A DNA stretch of 64,000 nt, taken from NCBI RefSeq assembly GCF_013122565.1, contig NZ_CP053258.1. One strand, written 5' to 3'. Below the pieces are notes generated by a model, which made no database searches, had not been told where the DNA came from, and worked only from the letters and a program-made list of their open reading frames with translations. The translations under genes and the position numbers were made by a program. This stretch comes from Escherichia coli. GTDB taxonomy: Bacteria > Pseudomonadota > Gammaproteobacteria > Enterobacterales > Enterobacteriaceae. Positions 21,990 through 27,957 of the stretch are shown here, piece by piece (the stretch's first letter is position 1; each line of letters starts with the position of its first letter).

Positions 21990-22300
21990 AGCAATAACAG
22001 CGTTACGGTGCACCACGCCTGACTGAAGAACTGCGTGCTCAGGGTTACCACTTCAACGTAAAACCGTGGCAGGAGGTCCGGACTGAAAAAACTGCTCAGG
22101 ACATTATCGGCAGGGTACGCACTGGTAGTCTGTAAACTGAACCGACTGGGGCGCAGTATGTGGCATCTTGTCGTGCTGTTGGAGGAGCTGTGCGGACGTG
22201 GTATTAACTTTCGTGCTCTGGCCCAATCTATATTTGCCCAACAATGGGGGGACGGAAGCTGTAAAAGTAAAATAATCTGCGATCTCAGATTTATTGAGTG
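21990..22300 (+). pseudogene. pinH: Frameshifted remnant of a Pin/Hin/Gin-family serine DNA invertase (pinH-like)
   Basis: One frame translates to [52 protein letters not shown], which aligns well with Pin/Gin …PGLKRALKRLQKGDTLVVWKLDRLGRSMKHLISLVGELRERGINFRSLTDSI…; upstream similarity continues only after a frameshift, and no N-terminal catalytic Ser region or C-terminal HTH is present. Confidence 0.55.
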
Positions 22301-22639
22301 ATTTTTATGTGAGCAGAAGATATTCATCAGAAACGATTATGTAAATCATTTTATTTTGCCGACTGCCTGATTGTCGAAAGAAAAGAATACGCCCGTGTTT
22401 CCTGAATAGATTGACTTTTTTATCCAACCACACTTCAGCGCACTGCGTTTAAAAAATGCCTCATTCTTATGCGGAATATCATCATTTCATCATGATGTCT
22501 TTGATGAGCGGTGAACACAATACACTTGCGCTGTCTCTTCAGGATGAATCCCCTGGTCTGGTGCCTGTGGGCTGATGTTGCAGCAAAGCTAAGGTCGCTT
22601 AAACGCTACTCAGTATTCACTTTTCAGAGGATGAAATTT

Positions 22640-25600
22640 ATGAACAGGACCAGTCCCTATTATTGTCGTCGCTCAGTACTTTCCTTATTGATATCTGCCT
22701 TGATATATGCCCCGCCCGGGATGGCTGCCTTCACTCCTGATGTTATTGGTGTGGTAAACGATGAGACTGTAGATGGCAGCCAACGAGTAGATGAACGAGG
22801 TACAACAAATAACACTCATATTATCAACCATGGCCAGCAGAATGTTTATGGCGGGGTATCTAATGGAAGTCTTATTGAATCTGGTGGATATCAAGATGTA
22901 GGAAGGCATAACAATTATGTGGGGCAGTCTAATAATACAACCATTAACGGGGGCAGACAGACAATTCATGACGGGGGTATTTCCACAGGTACGATAATCG
23001 AGAGTGGCAATCAGGACGTTTATACAGGTGGTATCAGCAATAGAACGACAATTAAGGGTGGTAATTCACACATAAGTGGGGGGACTGCGAATGGCACAAT
23101 CATTGATGGTGGCAGCCAACGAGTAACAACTCAGGGGCATGTCGACAGTACAACGATAAATAAGTCTGGCTCTCAGGACATCACGCAAGGAAGTCTGGCA
23201 ACGAACACCATCATAAATGGTGGTCGACAGTATGTTGAACAGAGCACAGTAGAAACAACCACCATTAAAAATGGCGGTGAGCAAAGAGTATATGAGAGCC
23301 GTGCGCTGGACACGACGATTGAAGGCGGAACTCAGTCTCTGAATAGTAAGTCAACGGCAAAAAATACGCAGATCTATTCTGGTGGCACGCAAATTGTTGA
23401 TAACACCAGCACCTCGGATGTTATTGAAGTTTATTCCGGTGGCGTGCTTGATGTTAGTGGTGGTACGGCAACAAATGTTACCCAGCACGATGGTGCAATT
23501 TTAAAAACTAACACTAACGGTACGACGGTGAGCGGTACGAATAGTGAAGGTGCATTCTCCATCCACAATCACGTGGCAGACAATGTGTTGCTGGAAAACG
23601 GTGGTCATTTAGACATAAACGCATATGGTTCGGCAAACAAGACGATTATTAAAGATAAAGGAACAATGTCAGTTTTAACCAATGCTAAAGCTGATGCGAC
23701 CCGAATAGATAATGGCGGGGTTATGGATGTTGCAGGAAACGCGACAAATACCATAATTAATGGTGGCACACAGAATATTAATAATTATGGCATAGCCACA
23801 GGCACCAATATCAACAGCGGAACGCAAAATATCAAAAGCGGCGGGAAAGCTGACACAACAATTATATCCTCCGGGAGCCGGCAGGTTGTTGAGAAAGATG
23901 GTACGGCAATTGGCAGCAATATTAGCGCCGGAGGCTCGCTGATTGTCTATACCGGCGGTATTGCACATGGGGTTAACCAGGAGACGGGCAGTGCTTTAGT
24001 TGCCAACACGGGTGCAGGGACTGATATCGAAGGATACAACAAGCTCTCTCACTTCACTATTACCGGAGGGGAGGCTAATTATGTTGTGCTGGAAAATACC
24101 GGCGAACTGACGGTAGTGGCTAAAACCTCGGCGAAAAATACTACCATTGATGCTGGCGGTAAGCTGATTGTCCAGAAGGAGGCTAAAACAGATAGCACCA
24201 GACTTAATAATGGCGGCGTTCTGGAGGTTCAGGATGGTGGTGAGGCTAAGCATGTTGAGCAACAATCCGGCGGCGCATTAATTGCTTCCACGACTTCCGG
24301 AACACTTATCGAAGGAATCAACAGTTATGGTGATGCTTTCTACATCAGGAATTCAGAAGCTAAAAATGTAGTGCTGGAAAACGCTGGCTCATTAACAGTC
24401 GTCACTGGTTCCCGGGCAGTTGATACGATTATTAATGCCAACGGCAAAATGGATGTTTATGGAAAAGATGTTGGCACTGTACTCAATAGTGCTGGCACCC
24501 AAACAATATATGCCAGTGCCACTTCTGATAAAGCAAATATCAAAGGTGGCAAGCAAACGGTATATGGTTTAGCCACTGAAGCAAATATCGAAAGTGGTGA
24601 ACAAATTGTTGATGGTGGGTCAACAGACAAAACGCACATCAATGGCGGTACGCAAACCGTTCAGAATTATGGTAAGGCAATCAATACCGATATCGTCTCT
24701 GGCCTACAACAAATTATGGCAAACGGGACAGCGGAAGGTTCCATTATTAATGGCGGTTCACAGGTAGTTAATGAGGGCGGTCTGGCTGAAAATTCGGTGC
24801 TTAATGACGGCGGCATACTCGATGTGCGGGAGAAAGGCAGCGCAACGGGGATACAGCAGAGTAGCCAGGGCGCTTTGGTTGCAACCACCAGGGCGACGCG
24901 GGTCAAAGGAACACGCGCGGATGGCGTCGCGTTCAGCATCGAGCAGGGTGCGGCGAACAATATCCTGCTGGCAAATGGCGGCGTGTTAACCGTGGAGTCA
25001 GACACCTCTTCTGACAAAACACAGGTCAAGACGGGCGGACGGGAGATCGTCAAAACAAAAGCCACTGCGACAGGCACGACGCTCACCGGCGGTGAACAAA
25101 TTGTCGAGGGTGTGGCGAATGAGACAACAATTAACGACGGCGGAATACAAACAGTTTCAGCTAACGGAGAGGCAATAAAAACAAAGATCAATGAAGGCGG
25201 TACGCTGACAGTCAACGATAATGGCAAAGCGACAGATATCGTCCAGAACAGCGGTGCCGCTCTCCAGACGAGCACGGCTAACGGTATTGAAATCAGCGGT
25301 ACTCACCAGTACGGCACTTTTTCCATTGTCGGCAATTTAGCGACCAATATGTTGCTGGAAAATGGCGGTAATTTATTGGTATTAGCAGGTACCGAAGCTC
25401 GCGACTCCACGGTTGGCAAGGGTGGGGCAATGCAAAACCTGGGTCAGGACTCCGCTACAAAGGTTAACTCTGGCGGGCAATATACCCTTGGGCGGTCAAA
25501 AGATGAGTTTCAGCCTCTGGCCCGGGCAGAAGATCTCCAGGTCGCTGGCGGTACGGCAATCGTCTACGCAGGTACGCTGGCGGATGCATCGGTCAGTGGC

Positions 25601-27220
25601 GCGACAGGAAGCCTGTCGTTAATGACGCCACGGGATAATGTTACGCCAGTTAAACTCGAAGGGGCGGTCCGGATTACCGATAGCGCGACATTAACTCTGG
25701 GAAATGGCGTCGATACAACGCTTGCCGACCTGACGGCTGCCAGCCGGGGCAGTGTCTGGCTTAACAGCAATAATTCCTGTGCAGGTACCAGCAACTGCGA
25801 ATATAGAGTAAACAGTTTGCTACTCAACGACGGTGATGTTTATTTATCAGCACAAACAGCTGCGCCTGCCACAACTAACGGTATCTACAATACGCTGACA
25901 ACCAATGAACTTTCCGGTAGCGGTAATTTCTACCTGCATACCAACGTTGCTGGCTCCCGCGGTGATCAACTGGTCGTCAGCAACAACGCCACTGGTAATT
26001 TTAAAATCTTTGTTCAGGATACCGGCGTCAGCCCTCAGTCTGACGATGCGATGACGCTGGTGAAAACAGGGGGAGGGGATGCGTCGTTTACGCTGGGCAA
26101 TACCGGCGGTTTCGTTGATCTTGGGACCTATGAGTATGTCCTGAAAAGCGACGGCAACAGCAACTGGAACCTGACCAATGATGTCAAACCCAACCCGGAC
26201 CCCAACCCAAATCCAAAGCCAGACCCAAAACCCGATCCAACGCCAGACCCAAATCCAAAACCAGACCCGACTCCCGAGCCAACGCCGACACCCGTTCCGG
26301 AGAAACGCATTACGCCTTCTACGGCAGCCGTACTCAATATGGCAGCAACATTACCGTTGGTATTTGATGCTGAGCTAAACAGTATTCGCGAGCGGTTGAA
26401 CATAATGAAAGCGAGTCCACACAACAATAATGTCTGGGGGGCGACGTATAACACCCGTAATAATGTCACCACCGATGCGGGGGCTGGGTTTGAGCAGACG
26501 CTGACCGGAATGACAGTGGGGATCGACAGTCGTAATGATATTCCTGAAGGGATTGCCACGCTGGGCGCTTTTATGGGCTATTCACATTCACATATCGGTT
26601 TTGATCGCGGAGGACATGGCAGTGTGGGCAGTTATTCTCTGGGCGGCTATGCCAGTTGGGAACATGAAAGTGGTTTTTATCTGGACGGTGTCGTGAAGCT
26701 GAACCGTTTTGAAAGTAACGTAGCCGGTAAAATGAGCAGCGGTGGAGCCGCCAACGGCAGTTATCGCAGCAACGGGCTGGGCGGTCACATTGAAACCGGG
26801 ATGCGATTTACCGATGGTAACTGGAACCTGACGCCGTATGCATCGTTAACGGGGTTCACCGCTGATAACCCCGAATATCATTTATCCAATGGCATGGAAT
26901 CGAAATCAGTCGATACTCGCAGTATATATCGCGAACTGGGCGCAACGCTGAGTTACAACATGCGTCTGGGGAACGGTATGGAAATTGAGCCGTGGCTGAA
27001 GGCGGCTGTACGCAAAGAATTTGTCGATGATAACCGGGTGAAGGTGAATAATGACGGTAATTTCGTCAATGATTTGTCGGGCAGACGTGGAATATACCAG
27101 GCAGGTATTAAAGCCTCATTCAGCAGTACGTTAAGCGGGCATCTCGGGGTGGGGTATAGCCATGGTGCCGGTGTGGAATCACCGTGGAACGCGGTAGCTG
27201 GTGTGAACTGGTCGTTCTGA
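22640..27220 (+). CDS. ypjA: AIDA-I/YpjA-type autotransporter adhesin (type Va secretion)
   Basis: Track ORF 22511..27220; start placed at MNRTSPYYCRRSVLSLLISALIYAPPGMAA (extended signal peptide, SD agagga upstream) giving 1526 aa. Long passenger with ~19-residue degenerate repeats (…T.INGG.Q.V…GG…), Pro-rich linker KPNPDPNPNPKPDPKPDPTPDPNPKPDPTPEPTPTPVP, C-terminal beta-barrel ending …GVNWSF. Confidence 0.9.
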   Translation: MNRTSPYYCRRSVLSLLISALIYAPPGMAAFTPDVIGVVNDETVDGSQRVDERGTTNNTHIINHGQQNVYGGVSNGSLIESGGYQDVGRHNNYVGQSNNTTINGGRQTIHDGGISTGTIIESGNQDVYTGGISNRTTIKGGNSHISGGTANGTIIDGGSQRVTTQGHVDSTTINKSGSQDITQGSLATNTIINGGRQYVEQSTVETTTIKNGGEQRVYESRALDTTIEGGTQSLNSKSTAKNTQIYSGGTQIVDNTSTSDVIEVYSGGVLDVSGGTATNVTQHDGAILKTNTNGTTVSGTNSEGAFSIHNHVADNVLLENGGHLDINAYGSANKTIIKDKGTMSVLTNAKADATRIDNGGVMDVAGNATNTIINGGTQNINNYGIATGTNINSGTQNIKSGGKADTTIISSGSRQVVEKDGTAIGSNISAGGSLIVYTGGIAHGVNQETGSALVANTGAGTDIEGYNKLSHFTITGGEANYVVLENTGELTVVAKTSAKNTTIDAGGKLIVQKEAKTDSTRLNNGGVLEVQDGGEAKHVEQQSGGALIASTTSGTLIEGINSYGDAFYIRNSEAKNVVLENAGSLTVVTGSRAVDTIINANGKMDVYGKDVGTVLNSAGTQTIYASATSDKANIKGGKQTVYGLATEANIESGEQIVDGGSTDKTHINGGTQTVQNYGKAINTDIVSGLQQIMANGTAEGSIINGGSQVVNEGGLAENSVLNDGGILDVREKGSATGIQQSSQGALVATTRATRVKGTRADGVAFSIEQGAANNILLANGGVLTVESDTSSDKTQVKTGGREIVKTKATATGTTLTGGEQIVEGVANETTINDGGIQTVSANGEAIKTKINEGGTLTVNDNGKATDIVQNSGAALQTSTANGIEISGTHQYGTFSIVGNLATNMLLENGGNLLVLAGTEARDSTVGKGGAMQNLGQDSATKVNSGGQYTLGRSKDEFQPLARAEDLQVAGGTAIVYAGTLADASVSGATGSLSLMTPRDNVTPVKLEGAVRITDSATLTLGNGVDTTLADLTAASRGSVWLNSNNSCAGTSNCEYRVNSLLLNDGDVYLSAQTAAPATTNGIYNTLTTNELSGSGNFYLHTNVAGSRGDQLVVSNNATGNFKIFVQDTGVSPQSDDAMTLVKTGGGDASFTLGNTGGFVDLGTYEYVLKSDGNSNWNLTNDVKPNPDPNPNPKPDPKPDPTPDPNPKPDPTPEPTPTPVPEKRITPSTAAVLNMAATLPLVFDAELNSIRERLNIMKASPHNNNVWGATYNTRNNVTTDAGAGFEQTLTGMTVGIDSRNDIPEGIATLGAFMGYSHSHIGFDRGGHGSVGSYSLGGYASWEHESGFYLDGVVKLNRFESNVAGKMSSGGAANGSYRSNGLGGHIETGMRFTDGNWNLTPYASLTGFTADNPEYHLSNGMESKSVDTRSIYRELGATLSYNMRLGNGMEIEPWLKAAVRKEFVDDNRVKVNNDGNFVNDLSGRRGIYQAGIKASFSSTLSGHLGVGYSHGAGVESPWNAVAGVNWSF

Positions 27221-27232
27221 CCATCAACGAAA

Positions 27233-27255
27233 AAGCCCACATCTGTGGGCTTTCA
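27233..27255 (+). terminator. Putative intrinsic terminator after ypjA
   Basis: aaaaagcccacatctgtgggctttc: GC stem gcccac/gtgggc followed by a short T tract. Confidence 0.45.
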
Positions 27256-27380
27256 TGTTACCAGGAGCCGCGGCTCCTTTGCGTATCCTTTTTTGTCTCC
27301 TCACCGTCTGGTCGGTGTCCTGCTGAGACTGCTAACTTCCTGTTTTTGTTGGTGTTGTCCTTACACCGTCCAATCATGAT

Positions 27381-27743
27381 TGGTGGAGCTGGCGGGAGTT
27401 GAACCCGCGTCCGAAATTCCTACATCCTCGGTACTACATGCTTAGTCAGTCTTTACATTCGCTTGCCAGCTGCGGACGGACACGCCACTAACAAACTAGC
27501 CTGATTAAGTTTTAACGCTTCAACCCCAGGCAGGGCTTCCACGCGATCTCTTTTGGGTTTGACCTCTCTTGATCCCCGTCCTAAGAGCGGAGGCTAGGGA
27601 GAGAGGGCTCTAAGCAGGTTATTAAGCTGCTAAAGCGTAGTTTTCGTCGTTTGCGACTATTTTTTGCGGCTTTTTACGAGGCCAACCGCCCCTCGGCATG
27701 CACCTTGGGTTTCGCAAATCCCGTCGAATCCAGAATCAGCCCC
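27381..27743 (-). ncRNA. ssrA: tmRNA (SsrA), 363 nt
   Basis: Reverse complement reads GGGGCTGATTCTGGATTCGACGGGATTTGCGAAACCCAAGGTGCATGCCGAGG … and contains the tag reading frame GCAAACGACGAAAACTACGCTTTAGCAGCTTAA (ANDENYALAA*) and the tRNA-like 3' end …GGGTTCAACTCCCGCCAGCTCCACCA. Confidence 0.96.
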
Positions 27744-27957
27744 AATGTGTAACGGCAAGTATACCAGATTTATGAGCGCCATGACCAGCCTCAATGGCGT
27801 TATCGTTAAAGATTTAGCACCCATGTAGCCTGATTTTTATTCGATTAAGCAATGGAATGGCAACATTTGTGTCGGATGTGATAACCAATAAGATGTTCAT
27901 TCGCGCCGCCGGAGAGGGAGGCGCGGTGAGGAACTGGTCAATAATTGGAGTGCAGGT

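What the first reader, a model, noticed from the sequence alone, without database searches (positions are those of the whole stretch)
27221..27380. Prophage-free tmRNA attachment site
The 3' end of ssrA is a classic integration site for P4-like elements, with CP4-57 there in K-12. Here the 160 bp following the tmRNA 3' end run straight into the ypjA terminator, with no integrase and no obvious duplicated copy of the ssrA 3' end. That makes this an unoccupied site useful as a reference for island boundaries.
Basis: partly seen in the sequence, partly recalled or inferred. Interest (0 to 1): 0.3.

Follow-up and report, generated by a model that had tools for sequence, protein, structure and literature searches.

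The report
Empty tmRNA integration site, conserved trailer
The tmRNA gene in this E. coli-like window has no prophage or island at its 3' end, a common and known state, and the 160 bp after it are the gene's own conserved, folded trailer and terminator, which some temperate phages also carry.

Summary
ssrA (tmRNA) is at 27381-27743 (-), the ypjA ORF ends at 27220 (+), and exactly 160 bp lie between. The window holds no second copy of the ssrA 3' end and nothing resembling four ssrA-site integrases. The spacer is colinear with the 160 bp that in K-12 lie between the 14-bp pseudo-ssrA at the right end of CP4-57 and ypjA. ssrA is 363/363 identical to the K-12 mature sequence and keeps T357, so it lacks the inactivating excision scar. 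The state is ordinary: 1522 of 5426 complete E. coli genomes show the same ypjA-spacer-ssrA contiguity.

The spacer is not inert. Bases 27230-27380 (ssrA sense) form a 151-nt trailer with four covarying hairpins, ending in a terminator that doubles as the ypjA terminator. The same block occurs across Enterobacterales and at the attachment site of LLS-like phages, so for that family the island boundary is the terminator (27230), not the ssrA end.

The adjoining 10.7 kb (ygaQ, ileY, ypjCB, pinH', ypjA) is absent from one E. coli genome (SA186) and from E. whittamii, so the flank may be old acquired DNA.

The finding is correct but of low interest; the trailer is a modest lead.

The parts
27381..27743 (-). 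ssrA (tmRNA) gene, tag peptide ANDENYALAA. It is identical to the K-12 mature sequence and keeps T357.
27758..27787 (-). Sigma-70-like promoter match just upstream of ssrA (TGGTCA, 18-nt spacer, TATACT). This is a consensus match only.
27221..27380 (.). The 160-bp spacer of the finding. It is colinear with the K-12 psaA-ypjA spacer, with 4 substitutions and no indels.
27230..27380 (-). 151-nt ssrA 3' trailer, conserved across Enterobacterales and in temperate phages. It has four covarying hairpins and 7 GGA motifs.
27351..27367 (-). Hairpin PA, GGUGU[AAGGACA]ACACC. The inner pair occurs as A-U, U-A or C-G in different sequences.
27295..27329 (-). Hairpin PB. Outer stem GUCUC/GAGAC, with U-A, U-G or C-G at one pair; inner stem CACCG/CGGUG.
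27264..27277 (-). Hairpin P2, the palindrome GGAGCCGCGGCUCC. The host-side copy in SA186 reads GGAGUCGCGACUCC.
27230..27256 (.). Terminator hairpin P1. The stem is GCCCAC/GUGGGC (27235-27250). UUUUU (27234-27230) follows on the ssrA strand and UUUCAUGUU on the ypjA strand, so it is bidirectional but stronger for ssrA.
27370..27383 (.). Perfect 14-bp palindrome CCAATCATGATTGG spanning the CCA end of ssrA.
27381..27395 (-). The last 15 nt of ssrA, the identity segment used by the P4-like element CP4-57. K-12 annotation starts CP4-57 15 nt before the ssrA end, and psaA is 14 bp.
27400..27419 (-). TGAACCCGCGTCCGAAATTC, which matches 18 of 20 positions of the attP core annotated in phage LLS. It is the inner edge of the 190-bp block duplicated by LLS-like prophages.
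22511..27220 (+). Intact ypjA/ehaD autotransporter adhesin ORF, listed from its first possible start codon.
16536..27229 (.). 10.7-kb low-GC segment (ygaQ, ileY, ypjCB, pinH', ypjA). E. coli SA186 and E. whittamii have about 0.3-0.4 kb in its place. It abuts the ssrA terminator.
22062..22301 (+). pinH', a fragment of a serine recombinase (Pfam Resolvase, E=9.5e-10). It is the only recombinase remnant near the site, 5 kb away.
19538..19613 (+). ileY, tRNA-Ile(CAU); ARAGORN calls it Met(cat).

Best explanation
This is an unoccupied attachment site at the 3' end of the tmRNA gene. Shown: ssrA is intact and wild type. It is followed directly by its native downstream DNA and then by convergent ypjA, with no integrase, no duplicated ssrA 3' segment and no excision scar. 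Also shown: the 160-bp spacer is mostly (27230-27380) a conserved 151-nt sequence in the ssrA sense. It has four hairpins kept by compensatory changes, and the last hairpin is followed by a U-tract. Inferred: this is the 3' trailer and intrinsic terminator of the ssrA transcription unit. RNA polymerase reads about 150 nt past the mature CCA end and stops at P1. That insulates ypjA from the strong ssrA promoter, and the same hairpin terminates ypjA from the other side. Shown: LLS-like temperate phages carry their own copy of the last ~40 nt of ssrA plus trailer and terminator next to their attP core. Inferred: lysogeny by such a phage swaps in an equivalent 3' end, trailer and terminator. P4-like islands such as CP4-57 cross over in the last ~15 nt and bring an unrelated downstream sequence.
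For: Location of tmRNA and the ypjA stop. No repeat and no integrase. K-12 has CP4-57 inserted exactly here, with the same 160-bp flank on the ypjA side. ssrA is 363/363 identical to K-12 including T357, whereas CP4-57 excision leaves an inactive ssrA lacking T357 (PMC10107115). 1522 of 5426 complete E. coli genomes have the same contiguity, and 2536 have an intact ssrA/trailer junction. The trailer fold has z = -2.95 and the terminator hairpin is -17.4 kcal/mol with z = -4.6. The trailer motif sits 62 nt after an intact tmRNA gene in 12 of 21 species-representative loci from ten or more genera. On 105 distinct sequences 91.7% of cells are paired, against 38-53% when partners are slid. Pairs switch between A-U, U-A and C-G, and G-U wobbles (38, 19 and 32 sequences at three pairs) occur in the ssrA sense. 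Phage LLS annotates a 'tmRNA pseudogene' plus attP core over this block. The SA186 prophage has an Int 85% identical to the LLS Int and is flanked by two copies of the block. At least 120 IMG/VR contigs carry the motif.
Against: No transcript data were available, so read-through to P1, processing of the trailer and termination are inferred from sequence only. The comparative set was collected with an exact 22-base motif inside the trailer, which inflates apparent conservation around hairpin PB. Many copies are phage-borne, so conservation across genera may partly reflect phage spread rather than selection in the host. Whether the site was never occupied or was cleanly vacated cannot be decided from sequence.
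Confidence: 0.88

Rival explanations
1. The site is a scar. An island such as CP4-57 sat here and excised, or was deleted, leaving a remnant.
For: ssrA is a very busy integration site: 53% of complete E. coli genomes lack the intact ssrA/trailer junction. Clean excision would restore exactly this sequence, so past occupancy cannot be excluded.
Against: There is no partial repeat, integrase fragment or foreign DNA. The spacer has the same 160-bp length and order as the K-12 attR flank. ssrA keeps T357, unlike the product of K-12 CP4-57 excision.
Confidence: 0.05
2. The site is not really empty. The adjoining 10.7 kb (ygaQ, ileY, ypjCB, pinH', ypjA; 16536-27229) is itself an old, decayed acquired island lying against the ssrA terminator.
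For: The segment is absent from E. coli SA186 and from E. whittamii, which have about 0.3-0.4 kb between the terminator and glaH. Its GC content is 34-46% against 50-59% on either side. It contains a serine-recombinase fragment, a tRNA gene and an adhesin.
Against: There is no tyrosine integrase and no ssrA-derived direct repeat at its far end. Its edge is the distal side of the terminator, not a crossover point inside ssrA. Only one outgroup species was available, so a deletion in the short-form lineages is not excluded. This reading does not contradict the main explanation.
Confidence: 0.3
3. The trailer is conserved because it is a phage attP arm, with DNA sites for Int, Xis or IHF, spread among hosts by phage traffic. 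On this reading it has no RNA function for the host.
For: The block lies directly beside the annotated attP core of LLS. It is abundant in viral contigs. The GGA/AGGA motifs are spaced 11, 20, 20, 20, 12 and 11 nt apart, close to the DNA helical repeat.
Against: Compensatory changes keep four hairpins, and G-U wobbles occur in the ssrA sense only, which DNA-binding sites do not require. The block is also found next to displaced ssrA fragments at the far end of P4-type islands that do not carry it, in K-12 and Citrobacter portucalensis. A 13-mer shared by both arms in LLS is absent from the related SA186 prophage.
Confidence: 0.2
4. After processing, the trailer is released as a regulatory RNA of its own. 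It could be a 3'-external-spacer-type sponge for the GGA-binding protein CsrA or for Hfq.
For: There are seven GGA motifs in 151 nt. AGGA occurs 6 times against 1.6 in dinucleotide shuffles (P about 0.002). Four GGA motifs are invariant in 29 of 29 sequences, and two more are conserved in 23 and 25. One lies in a 7-nt hairpin loop (AAGGACA) and several lie in unpaired linkers. An A-rich ARN-like stretch and a terminator with a U-tail resemble Hfq-binding small RNAs (my reading of the sequence).
Against: Plain GGA enrichment is weak (7 against 4.4, P about 0.07). There is no usable match to the Rfam Csr/Rsm models (RsmY 10.3 bits against a gathering score of 57). No expression or binding data exist, and nothing was found in the literature searches.
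Confidence: 0.1

Closest known systems
attB of the CP4-57 cryptic prophage (P4-like integrase IntA) at ssrA in E. coli K-12
   Same: It is the same locus and the same flanks. K-12 has smpB-ssrA on one side and the 14-bp pseudo-ssrA (psaA), 160-bp spacer and ypjA on the other. The window is the joined, empty form.
   Different: There is no prophage here. The ssrA 3' end is wild type, whereas the K-12 attR copy lacks one base, so K-12 excision inactivates tmRNA (PMC10107115).
ssrA-integrating temperate phages of the LLS type (Escherichia phage LLS PQ299149; prophage in E. coli SA186)
   Same: Their attP-adjacent block, annotated 'tmRNA pseudogene' plus core, is homologous to window 27230-27419 at 88-95% identity. 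It includes all hairpins and the terminator.
   Different: The window has one copy only and no phage genes. The phage integrase is unrelated to IntA.
Phages that carry a replacement 3' end of their target gene (phage 21 and e14 at icd; tRNA-gene integrating elements). This comparison is from my own knowledge.
   Same: The element supplies a substitute 3' portion so that the target gene stays functional after integration.
   Different: Here the substitute extends about 150 nt beyond the mature RNA end and covers the trailer and terminator.
ssrA terminator read-through into an adjacent prophage gene (speA) in Streptococcus pyogenes M1UK
   Same: It illustrates that the terminator after ssrA controls what the strong ssrA promoter does to neighbouring DNA (PMC9951164, listed; I saw only its title and the start of its abstract).
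   Different: It is a different organism and sequence, and no read-through variant is evident here.
3' external transcribed spacers of tRNA operons acting as small-RNA sponges (3'ETS-leuZ; from my own knowledge), and Csr/Rsm sponge RNAs
   Same: They are by-products of a stable-RNA transcript ending in a terminator, and Csr/Rsm RNAs carry multiple GGA motifs in unpaired positions.
   Different: No evidence of accumulation or binding exists here, and the Rfam Csr/Rsm models do not match.

Membership tests
Unoccupied ssrA attachment site (attB) | Intact, full-length tmRNA gene with a wild-type 3' end | tested here: met
   ARAGORN and Rfam give a full-length match. The gene is 363/363 identical to K-12 and ends CGCCAGCTCCACCA.
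Unoccupied ssrA attachment site (attB) | No integrase gene or fragment next to the 3' end | tested here: met
   tblastn with four ssrA-site integrases found nothing below E=1 in 64 kb. The colinear annotated genome shows only ypjA next to ssrA.
Unoccupied ssrA attachment site (attB) | No direct repeat of the ssrA 3' segment marking a second junction | tested here: met
   The 23-mer with up to 3 mismatches occurs once. Word-7 BLAST found only the inverted tRNA-like match in ileY.
Unoccupied ssrA attachment site (attB) | The downstream flank equals the flank found beyond attR in occupied genomes | tested here: met
   The 160-bp spacer aligns without gaps to the K-12 psaA-ypjA spacer.
CP4-57 excision scar (ssrA lacking T357) | One-base deletion in the acceptor arm (CGCCAGC-CCACCA) | tested here: not met
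   The window has CGCCAGCTCCACCA. The scar is defined in PMC10107115.
Intrinsic (Rho-independent) terminator | GC-rich hairpin immediately followed by a U-tract | tested here: met
   On the - strand, GCCCAC-AGAU-GUGGGC is followed by UUUUU at -17.4 kcal/mol and z = -4.6. The stem covaries as G-C or A-U, and the U-tract is present in most copies across genera. The + strand tail is weaker (UUUCAUGUU). The simple terminator scan did not list this hairpin, probably because it extends the stem into the A and U runs.
Intrinsic (Rho-independent) terminator | Transcripts actually end there | not testable with these tools
   No RNA 3'-end data were available.
Csr/Rsm-type protein-sponge RNA | Match to the CsrB, CsrC or RsmX/Y/Z covariance models | tested here: not met
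   The best - strand hit is RsmY at 10.3 bits against a gathering score of 57, E=1.9.
Csr/Rsm-type protein-sponge RNA | Many GGA motifs in loops or unpaired stretches | tested here: inconclusive
   There are 7 GGA motifs and four are invariant across 29 sequences. AGGA is enriched (P about 0.002) but GGA only weakly (P about 0.07). Only one lies in a hairpin loop.
tRNA/tmRNA-linked genomic island (for the ygaQ-ypjA segment) | Tyrosine integrase plus flanking direct repeats derived from the target gene | tested here: not met
   There is no integrase and no repeat. Only a serine-recombinase fragment is present.
tRNA/tmRNA-linked genomic island (for the ygaQ-ypjA segment) | Presence/absence polymorphism and atypical base composition | tested here: met
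   The segment is absent in SA186 and E. whittamii. Its GC is 34-46% against 50-59% in the flanks.

The most novel reading that the evidence does not exclude
The ~150 nt after ssrA may be a functional structured RNA element that is not in Rfam. It is conserved from Escherichia to Erwinia and Mixta and is copied by a family of temperate phages as part of their attachment region. If so, host and phage both maintain a specific tmRNA 3' trailer. Possible roles are precursor processing and insulation of downstream DNA, or release as a small RNA with several GGA motifs that could bind a protein such as CsrA. K-12 studies would have missed it, because CP4-57 separates the trailer from ssrA in that strain.
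Probability: 0.3. Interest if true: 0.55.

Novelty: already known. Interest (0 to 1): 0.22.

Why it matters
As stated, the finding has only practical value. It gives a clean reference for the empty ssrA site, against which island junctions in other strains can be read. The work here refines that use in three ways. First, P4-like islands end within the last ~15 nt of ssrA, while LLS-like phages duplicate everything out to the terminator at 27230. Second, an intact ssrA/spacer junction does not prove the site is empty. Third, the ypjA side is itself variable DNA. The conserved trailer matters somewhat more. tmRNA is one of the most abundant RNAs in the cell, yet its native 3' flank in E. coli has not been visible in the K-12 model strain.

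Tried and rejected
1. Hidden att repeat. Searches with the ssrA 3' 23-mer and 12-mer and a word-7 BLAST found only the ileY tRNA 3' end (79% identity, inverted), which is generic tRNA-like similarity.

2. Small protein in the spacer. I read a 39-codon ORF on the - strand starting 3 nt after the CCA end (by eye; one search listed only ORFs of 40 aa or more). It has no Shine-Dalgarno sequence. One-base indels within conserved trailer blocks in other genera break any reading frame, so I rejected it.

3. Known RNA family. Two Rfam scans found nothing near a gathering score in 27221-27380. The weak hits (rsmX on the + strand, RsmY, Phe_leader, STnc350) all centre on the terminator hairpin.

4. attP arm sites. 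A 13-mer (GTCCTGCTGAGAC) lies on both sides of the LLS core. It is not repeated in the related SA186 prophage or in any other locus, so it is probably chance.

5. Literature. Searches on the ssrA downstream region, pre-tmRNA and the ypjF/ypjA intergenic region found nothing about this trailer. Williams 2003, 'Traffic at the tmRNA gene', is not held in the library and is cited only through Table 1 of PMC10107115.

6. Source organism. The best complete E. coli genome is only 97.8% identical over 25-49 kb. I did not pursue this.

Full report
**Observation.** ARAGORN and Rfam place a full-length tmRNA gene at 27381-27743 on the - strand. A long + strand ORF ends with TGA at 27218-27220. It has AIDA, Pertactin and Autotransporter domains and corresponds to ypjA/ehaD in the colinear annotated genome WP8-S18-CRE-02.

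**No repeat and no integrase.** The last 23 nt of ssrA occur once in the window, allowing up to three mismatches. A word-7 BLAST of the last 60 nt found one further hit, the 3' end of tRNA ileY (19581-19613, 79% identity). It is in inverted orientation and reflects the tRNA-like shape of the tmRNA end. tblastn with four integrases that work at or near this site found nothing below E=1 in the 64 kb. These were IntA of CP4-57, the SA186 prophage Int, the LLS Int and the Ayreon Int.

**Comparison with K-12.** In NC_000913, cryptic prophage CP4-57 (intA to ypjF) begins 15 nt before the end of ssrA. It ends at a 14-bp pseudogene, psaA, a copy of the ssrA 3' end that lacks one base. Then come 160 bp and ypjA. 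The window spacer aligns to those 160 bp without gaps and with four substitutions. The window is thus the joined, empty form of the K-12 site.

**Not an excision scar.** Onodera et al. 2022 (PMC10107115) showed that CP4-57 excision in K-12 leaves ssrA without T357, which gives inactive tmRNA. The window's ssrA is 363/363 identical to the mature K-12 gene and ends CGCCAGCTCCACCA. It therefore does not carry that scar. A perfectly clean earlier excision cannot be excluded from sequence.

**How common the state is.** A 360-bp query spanning ypjA, spacer and ssrA is covered contiguously in 1522 of 5426 complete E. coli genomes. A 160-bp query across the ssrA/spacer junction is covered in 2536. Other genomes split the query at different points inside ssrA. 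Alignments with the ypjA side reach window 27386, 27394, 27403 or 27413, and a further spacer-side match ends at 27419. This fits several integrase families using different sublocations in the gene, as PMC10107115 tabulates from Williams 2003. The empty state is therefore ordinary and already known.

**An intact junction is not enough.** Strain SA186 has a junction 100% identical to the window over the 160-bp query. Beyond the spacer lies a restriction-modification pair and a lambdoid prophage, with its integrase at the far end. After the integrase and two small genes comes a second copy of window 27230-27418, at 90.6% identity. This copy comprises the last 38 nt of ssrA plus the whole spacer up to the hairpin. 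SA186 thus carries two copies of a ~190-bp block, one on each side of the prophage.

**The same block in isolated phages.** The block occurs at 89% identity in Escherichia phage LLS. There it is annotated 'tmRNA pseudogene' with the attP core TGAACCCGCGCCCGTAATTC at its inner edge, and the integrase lies two genes away. The window equivalent of that core is 27400-27419. The SA186 Int is 85% identical to the LLS Int and unrelated to IntA. Citrobacter phage phiNP and the PhiR12 phages carry most of the block, while Ayreon and LMessi carry shorter partial matches. At least 120 IMG/VR contigs contain its core motif.

**The block as host DNA in other genera.** A 22-base motif from the spacer, scanned over one genome per species, gave 21 loci. 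They come from Citrobacter, Klebsiella, Enterobacter, Lelliottia, Leclercia, Pluralibacter, Trabulsiella, Pseudenterobacter, Mixta, Erwinia and Escherichia whittamii. In 12 of them the motif starts 62 nt after an intact tmRNA gene, the same spacing as in the window. In the others it follows a displaced ssrA fragment of the one-base or five-base deletion type or of the T-loop type. Those are the far junctions of islands, and include islands of the P4 type that do not carry the block.

**Structure of the spacer.** Read in the ssrA sense, 27380 to 27230 folds into four hairpins, PA, PB, P2 and P1, with a whole-trailer z-score of -2.95. On an alignment of 109 sequences (105 distinct), 91.7% of cells form standard pairs, against 38-53% when partners are slid by 1-3 columns. 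Individual pairs behave as follows.

| Hairpin | Pair (alignment columns) | Pair types observed |
|---|---|---|
| PA | 42-50 | A-U 42, U-A 34, C-G 23 |
| PA | 38-54 | G-C 55, A-U 37 |
| PB | 79-107 | U-A 59, U-G 38, C-G 6 |
| P2 | 132-137 | C-G 98, U-A 6 |
| P2 | 128-141 | G-C 85, G-U 19 |
| P1 | 161-170 | G-C 78, A-U 18 |
| P1 | 154-177 | A-U 68, G-U 32 |

- G-U wobbles in the ssrA sense would be A-C mismatches on the other strand. This points to an RNA read in the ssrA direction.
- P1 (GCCCAC-AGAU-GUGGGC, -17.4 kcal/mol) is followed by UUUUU on the ssrA strand in the window, and by five to seven U in most other copies.
- In SA186 and E. whittamii there is no ypjA next to P1, and the flanks beyond it differ in the other genera.
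- On the ypjA strand the tail in the window is only UUUCAUGUU.
- One caveat applies: the motif used for collection lies in PB, so invariance there is by construction. Many copies are also phage-borne.

**Most likely mechanism.** This part is inferred. ssrA transcription runs about 150 nt past the mature 3' end through a structured trailer and stops at P1. P1 also stops ypjA transcription coming from the other side. LLS-like phages integrate at a core about 20-40 nt inside ssrA. They bring their own copy of the 3' end, trailer and terminator, so the lysogen keeps a working and insulated ssrA. P4-like islands cross over in the last ~15 nt and supply unrelated downstream DNA. For island mapping, the outer boundary of LLS-type prophages is therefore the distal edge of the terminator (27230), not the end of ssrA.

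**What the trailer does beyond termination is open.** It holds seven GGA motifs at trailer positions 10, 21, 41, 61, 81, 93 and 104. AGGA occurs 6 times against 1.6 in dinucleotide shuffles (P about 0.002), while plain GGA occurs 7 times against 4.4 (P about 0.07). Four GGA motifs are invariant in 29 of 29 sequences, and one lies in the PA loop, AAGGACA. This resembles Csr/Rsm sponge RNAs, but the Rfam models do not match (RsmY 10.3 bits against 57) and no expression data exist. The spacing close to 10.4 nt could equally suggest protein sites on one face of the DNA in an attP arm. The only repeat I found shared by both arms of LLS is not present in the related SA186 prophage. Neither Rfam nor the literature searches describe the element.

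**The ypjA side.** E. whittamii and E. coli SA186 have only about 0.3-0.4 kb between the ssrA terminator and the glaH upstream region. The window has 10.7 kb there (16536-27229) holding ygaQ, ileY, ypjCB, a serine-recombinase fragment (pinH', 22062-22301; Pfam Resolvase E=9.5e-10) and ypjA. Its GC content is 34-46% against 50-59% in the flanks. It has no tyrosine integrase and no ssrA-derived repeat, so it is not a classical ssrA island. It does look like old acquired DNA lying against the terminator. 'Prophage-free' is correct, but 'pristine core flank' may not be.

**Verdict.** The state is common and already known, so interest is low. The conserved structured trailer, shared between hosts and phages, is a modest lead that is new as far as I could check, and it needs transcript data.

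Noticed in passing
window 27230-27380 (- strand); loci L005, L007, L012-L032, L033-L152: The ssrA trailer is conserved at roughly 80-95% identity from Escherichia to Erwinia and Mixta and in at least 120 IMG/VR viral contigs. It has covarying hairpins and is not in Rfam 15.
   Followed up: partly
window 27277-27371 (- strand): Seven GGA motifs sit at trailer positions 10, 21, 41, 61, 81, 93 and 104, a spacing of 11, 20, 20, 20, 12 and 11 nt. AGGA is enriched against dinucleotide shuffles (6 against 1.6).
   Followed up: partly
window 16536-27229: A 10.7-kb low-GC block (ygaQ, ileY, ypjCB, pinH', ypjA) is replaced by about 0.3-0.4 kb in E. coli SA186 and in E. whittamii. Its right edge is exactly the distal end of the ssrA terminator.
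   Followed up: partly
window 16726-18978 (-) and 20370-21704 (+): ygaQ (750 aa, alpha-amylase domains) and a fused ypjCB (444 aa, DUF5507 plus DUF5508) are intact ORFs here. In K-12, ygaQ is annotated as a pseudogene and ypjB/ypjC as separate genes. In WP8-S18-CRE-02 both carry internal stops.
   Followed up: no
window 3001-52002: The window is colinear with E. coli but only 97.8-97.9% identical to the best of 5426 complete genomes, ranging from 93% to 100% per kb. It may come from a lineage poorly represented among complete E. coli assemblies.
   Followed up: no
window 27370-27383: A perfect 14-bp palindrome, CCAATCATGATTGG, spans the mature CCA end of tmRNA. It is present at the K-12 attR flank but not after the functional K-12 ssrA, so it is not essential for tmRNA maturation.
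   Followed up: no
L011 1226-1332 (E. coli strain 2196, next to prfC); L006 (phage Ayreon): A 107-nt part of the trailer (window 27264-27376), without the ssrA end or terminator, occurs in phage Ayreon and at a prophage end beside prfC. Pieces of the block therefore circulate as a mosaic module in phages that use other attachment sites.
   Followed up: no
L021 and L023 (Enterobacter hormaechei, Pseudenterobacter timonensis): The DNA just beyond the ssrA trailer terminator is identical in these two genera. This suggests the same mobile element sits at ssrA in both.
   Followed up: no
L026, L028, L030 (MAGs labelled Collinsella and Lachnospiraceae; a Chryseobacterium assembly): Enterobacterial ssrA-trailer sequence appears in contigs assigned to unrelated taxa. 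This is most likely binning error or contamination.
   Followed up: no
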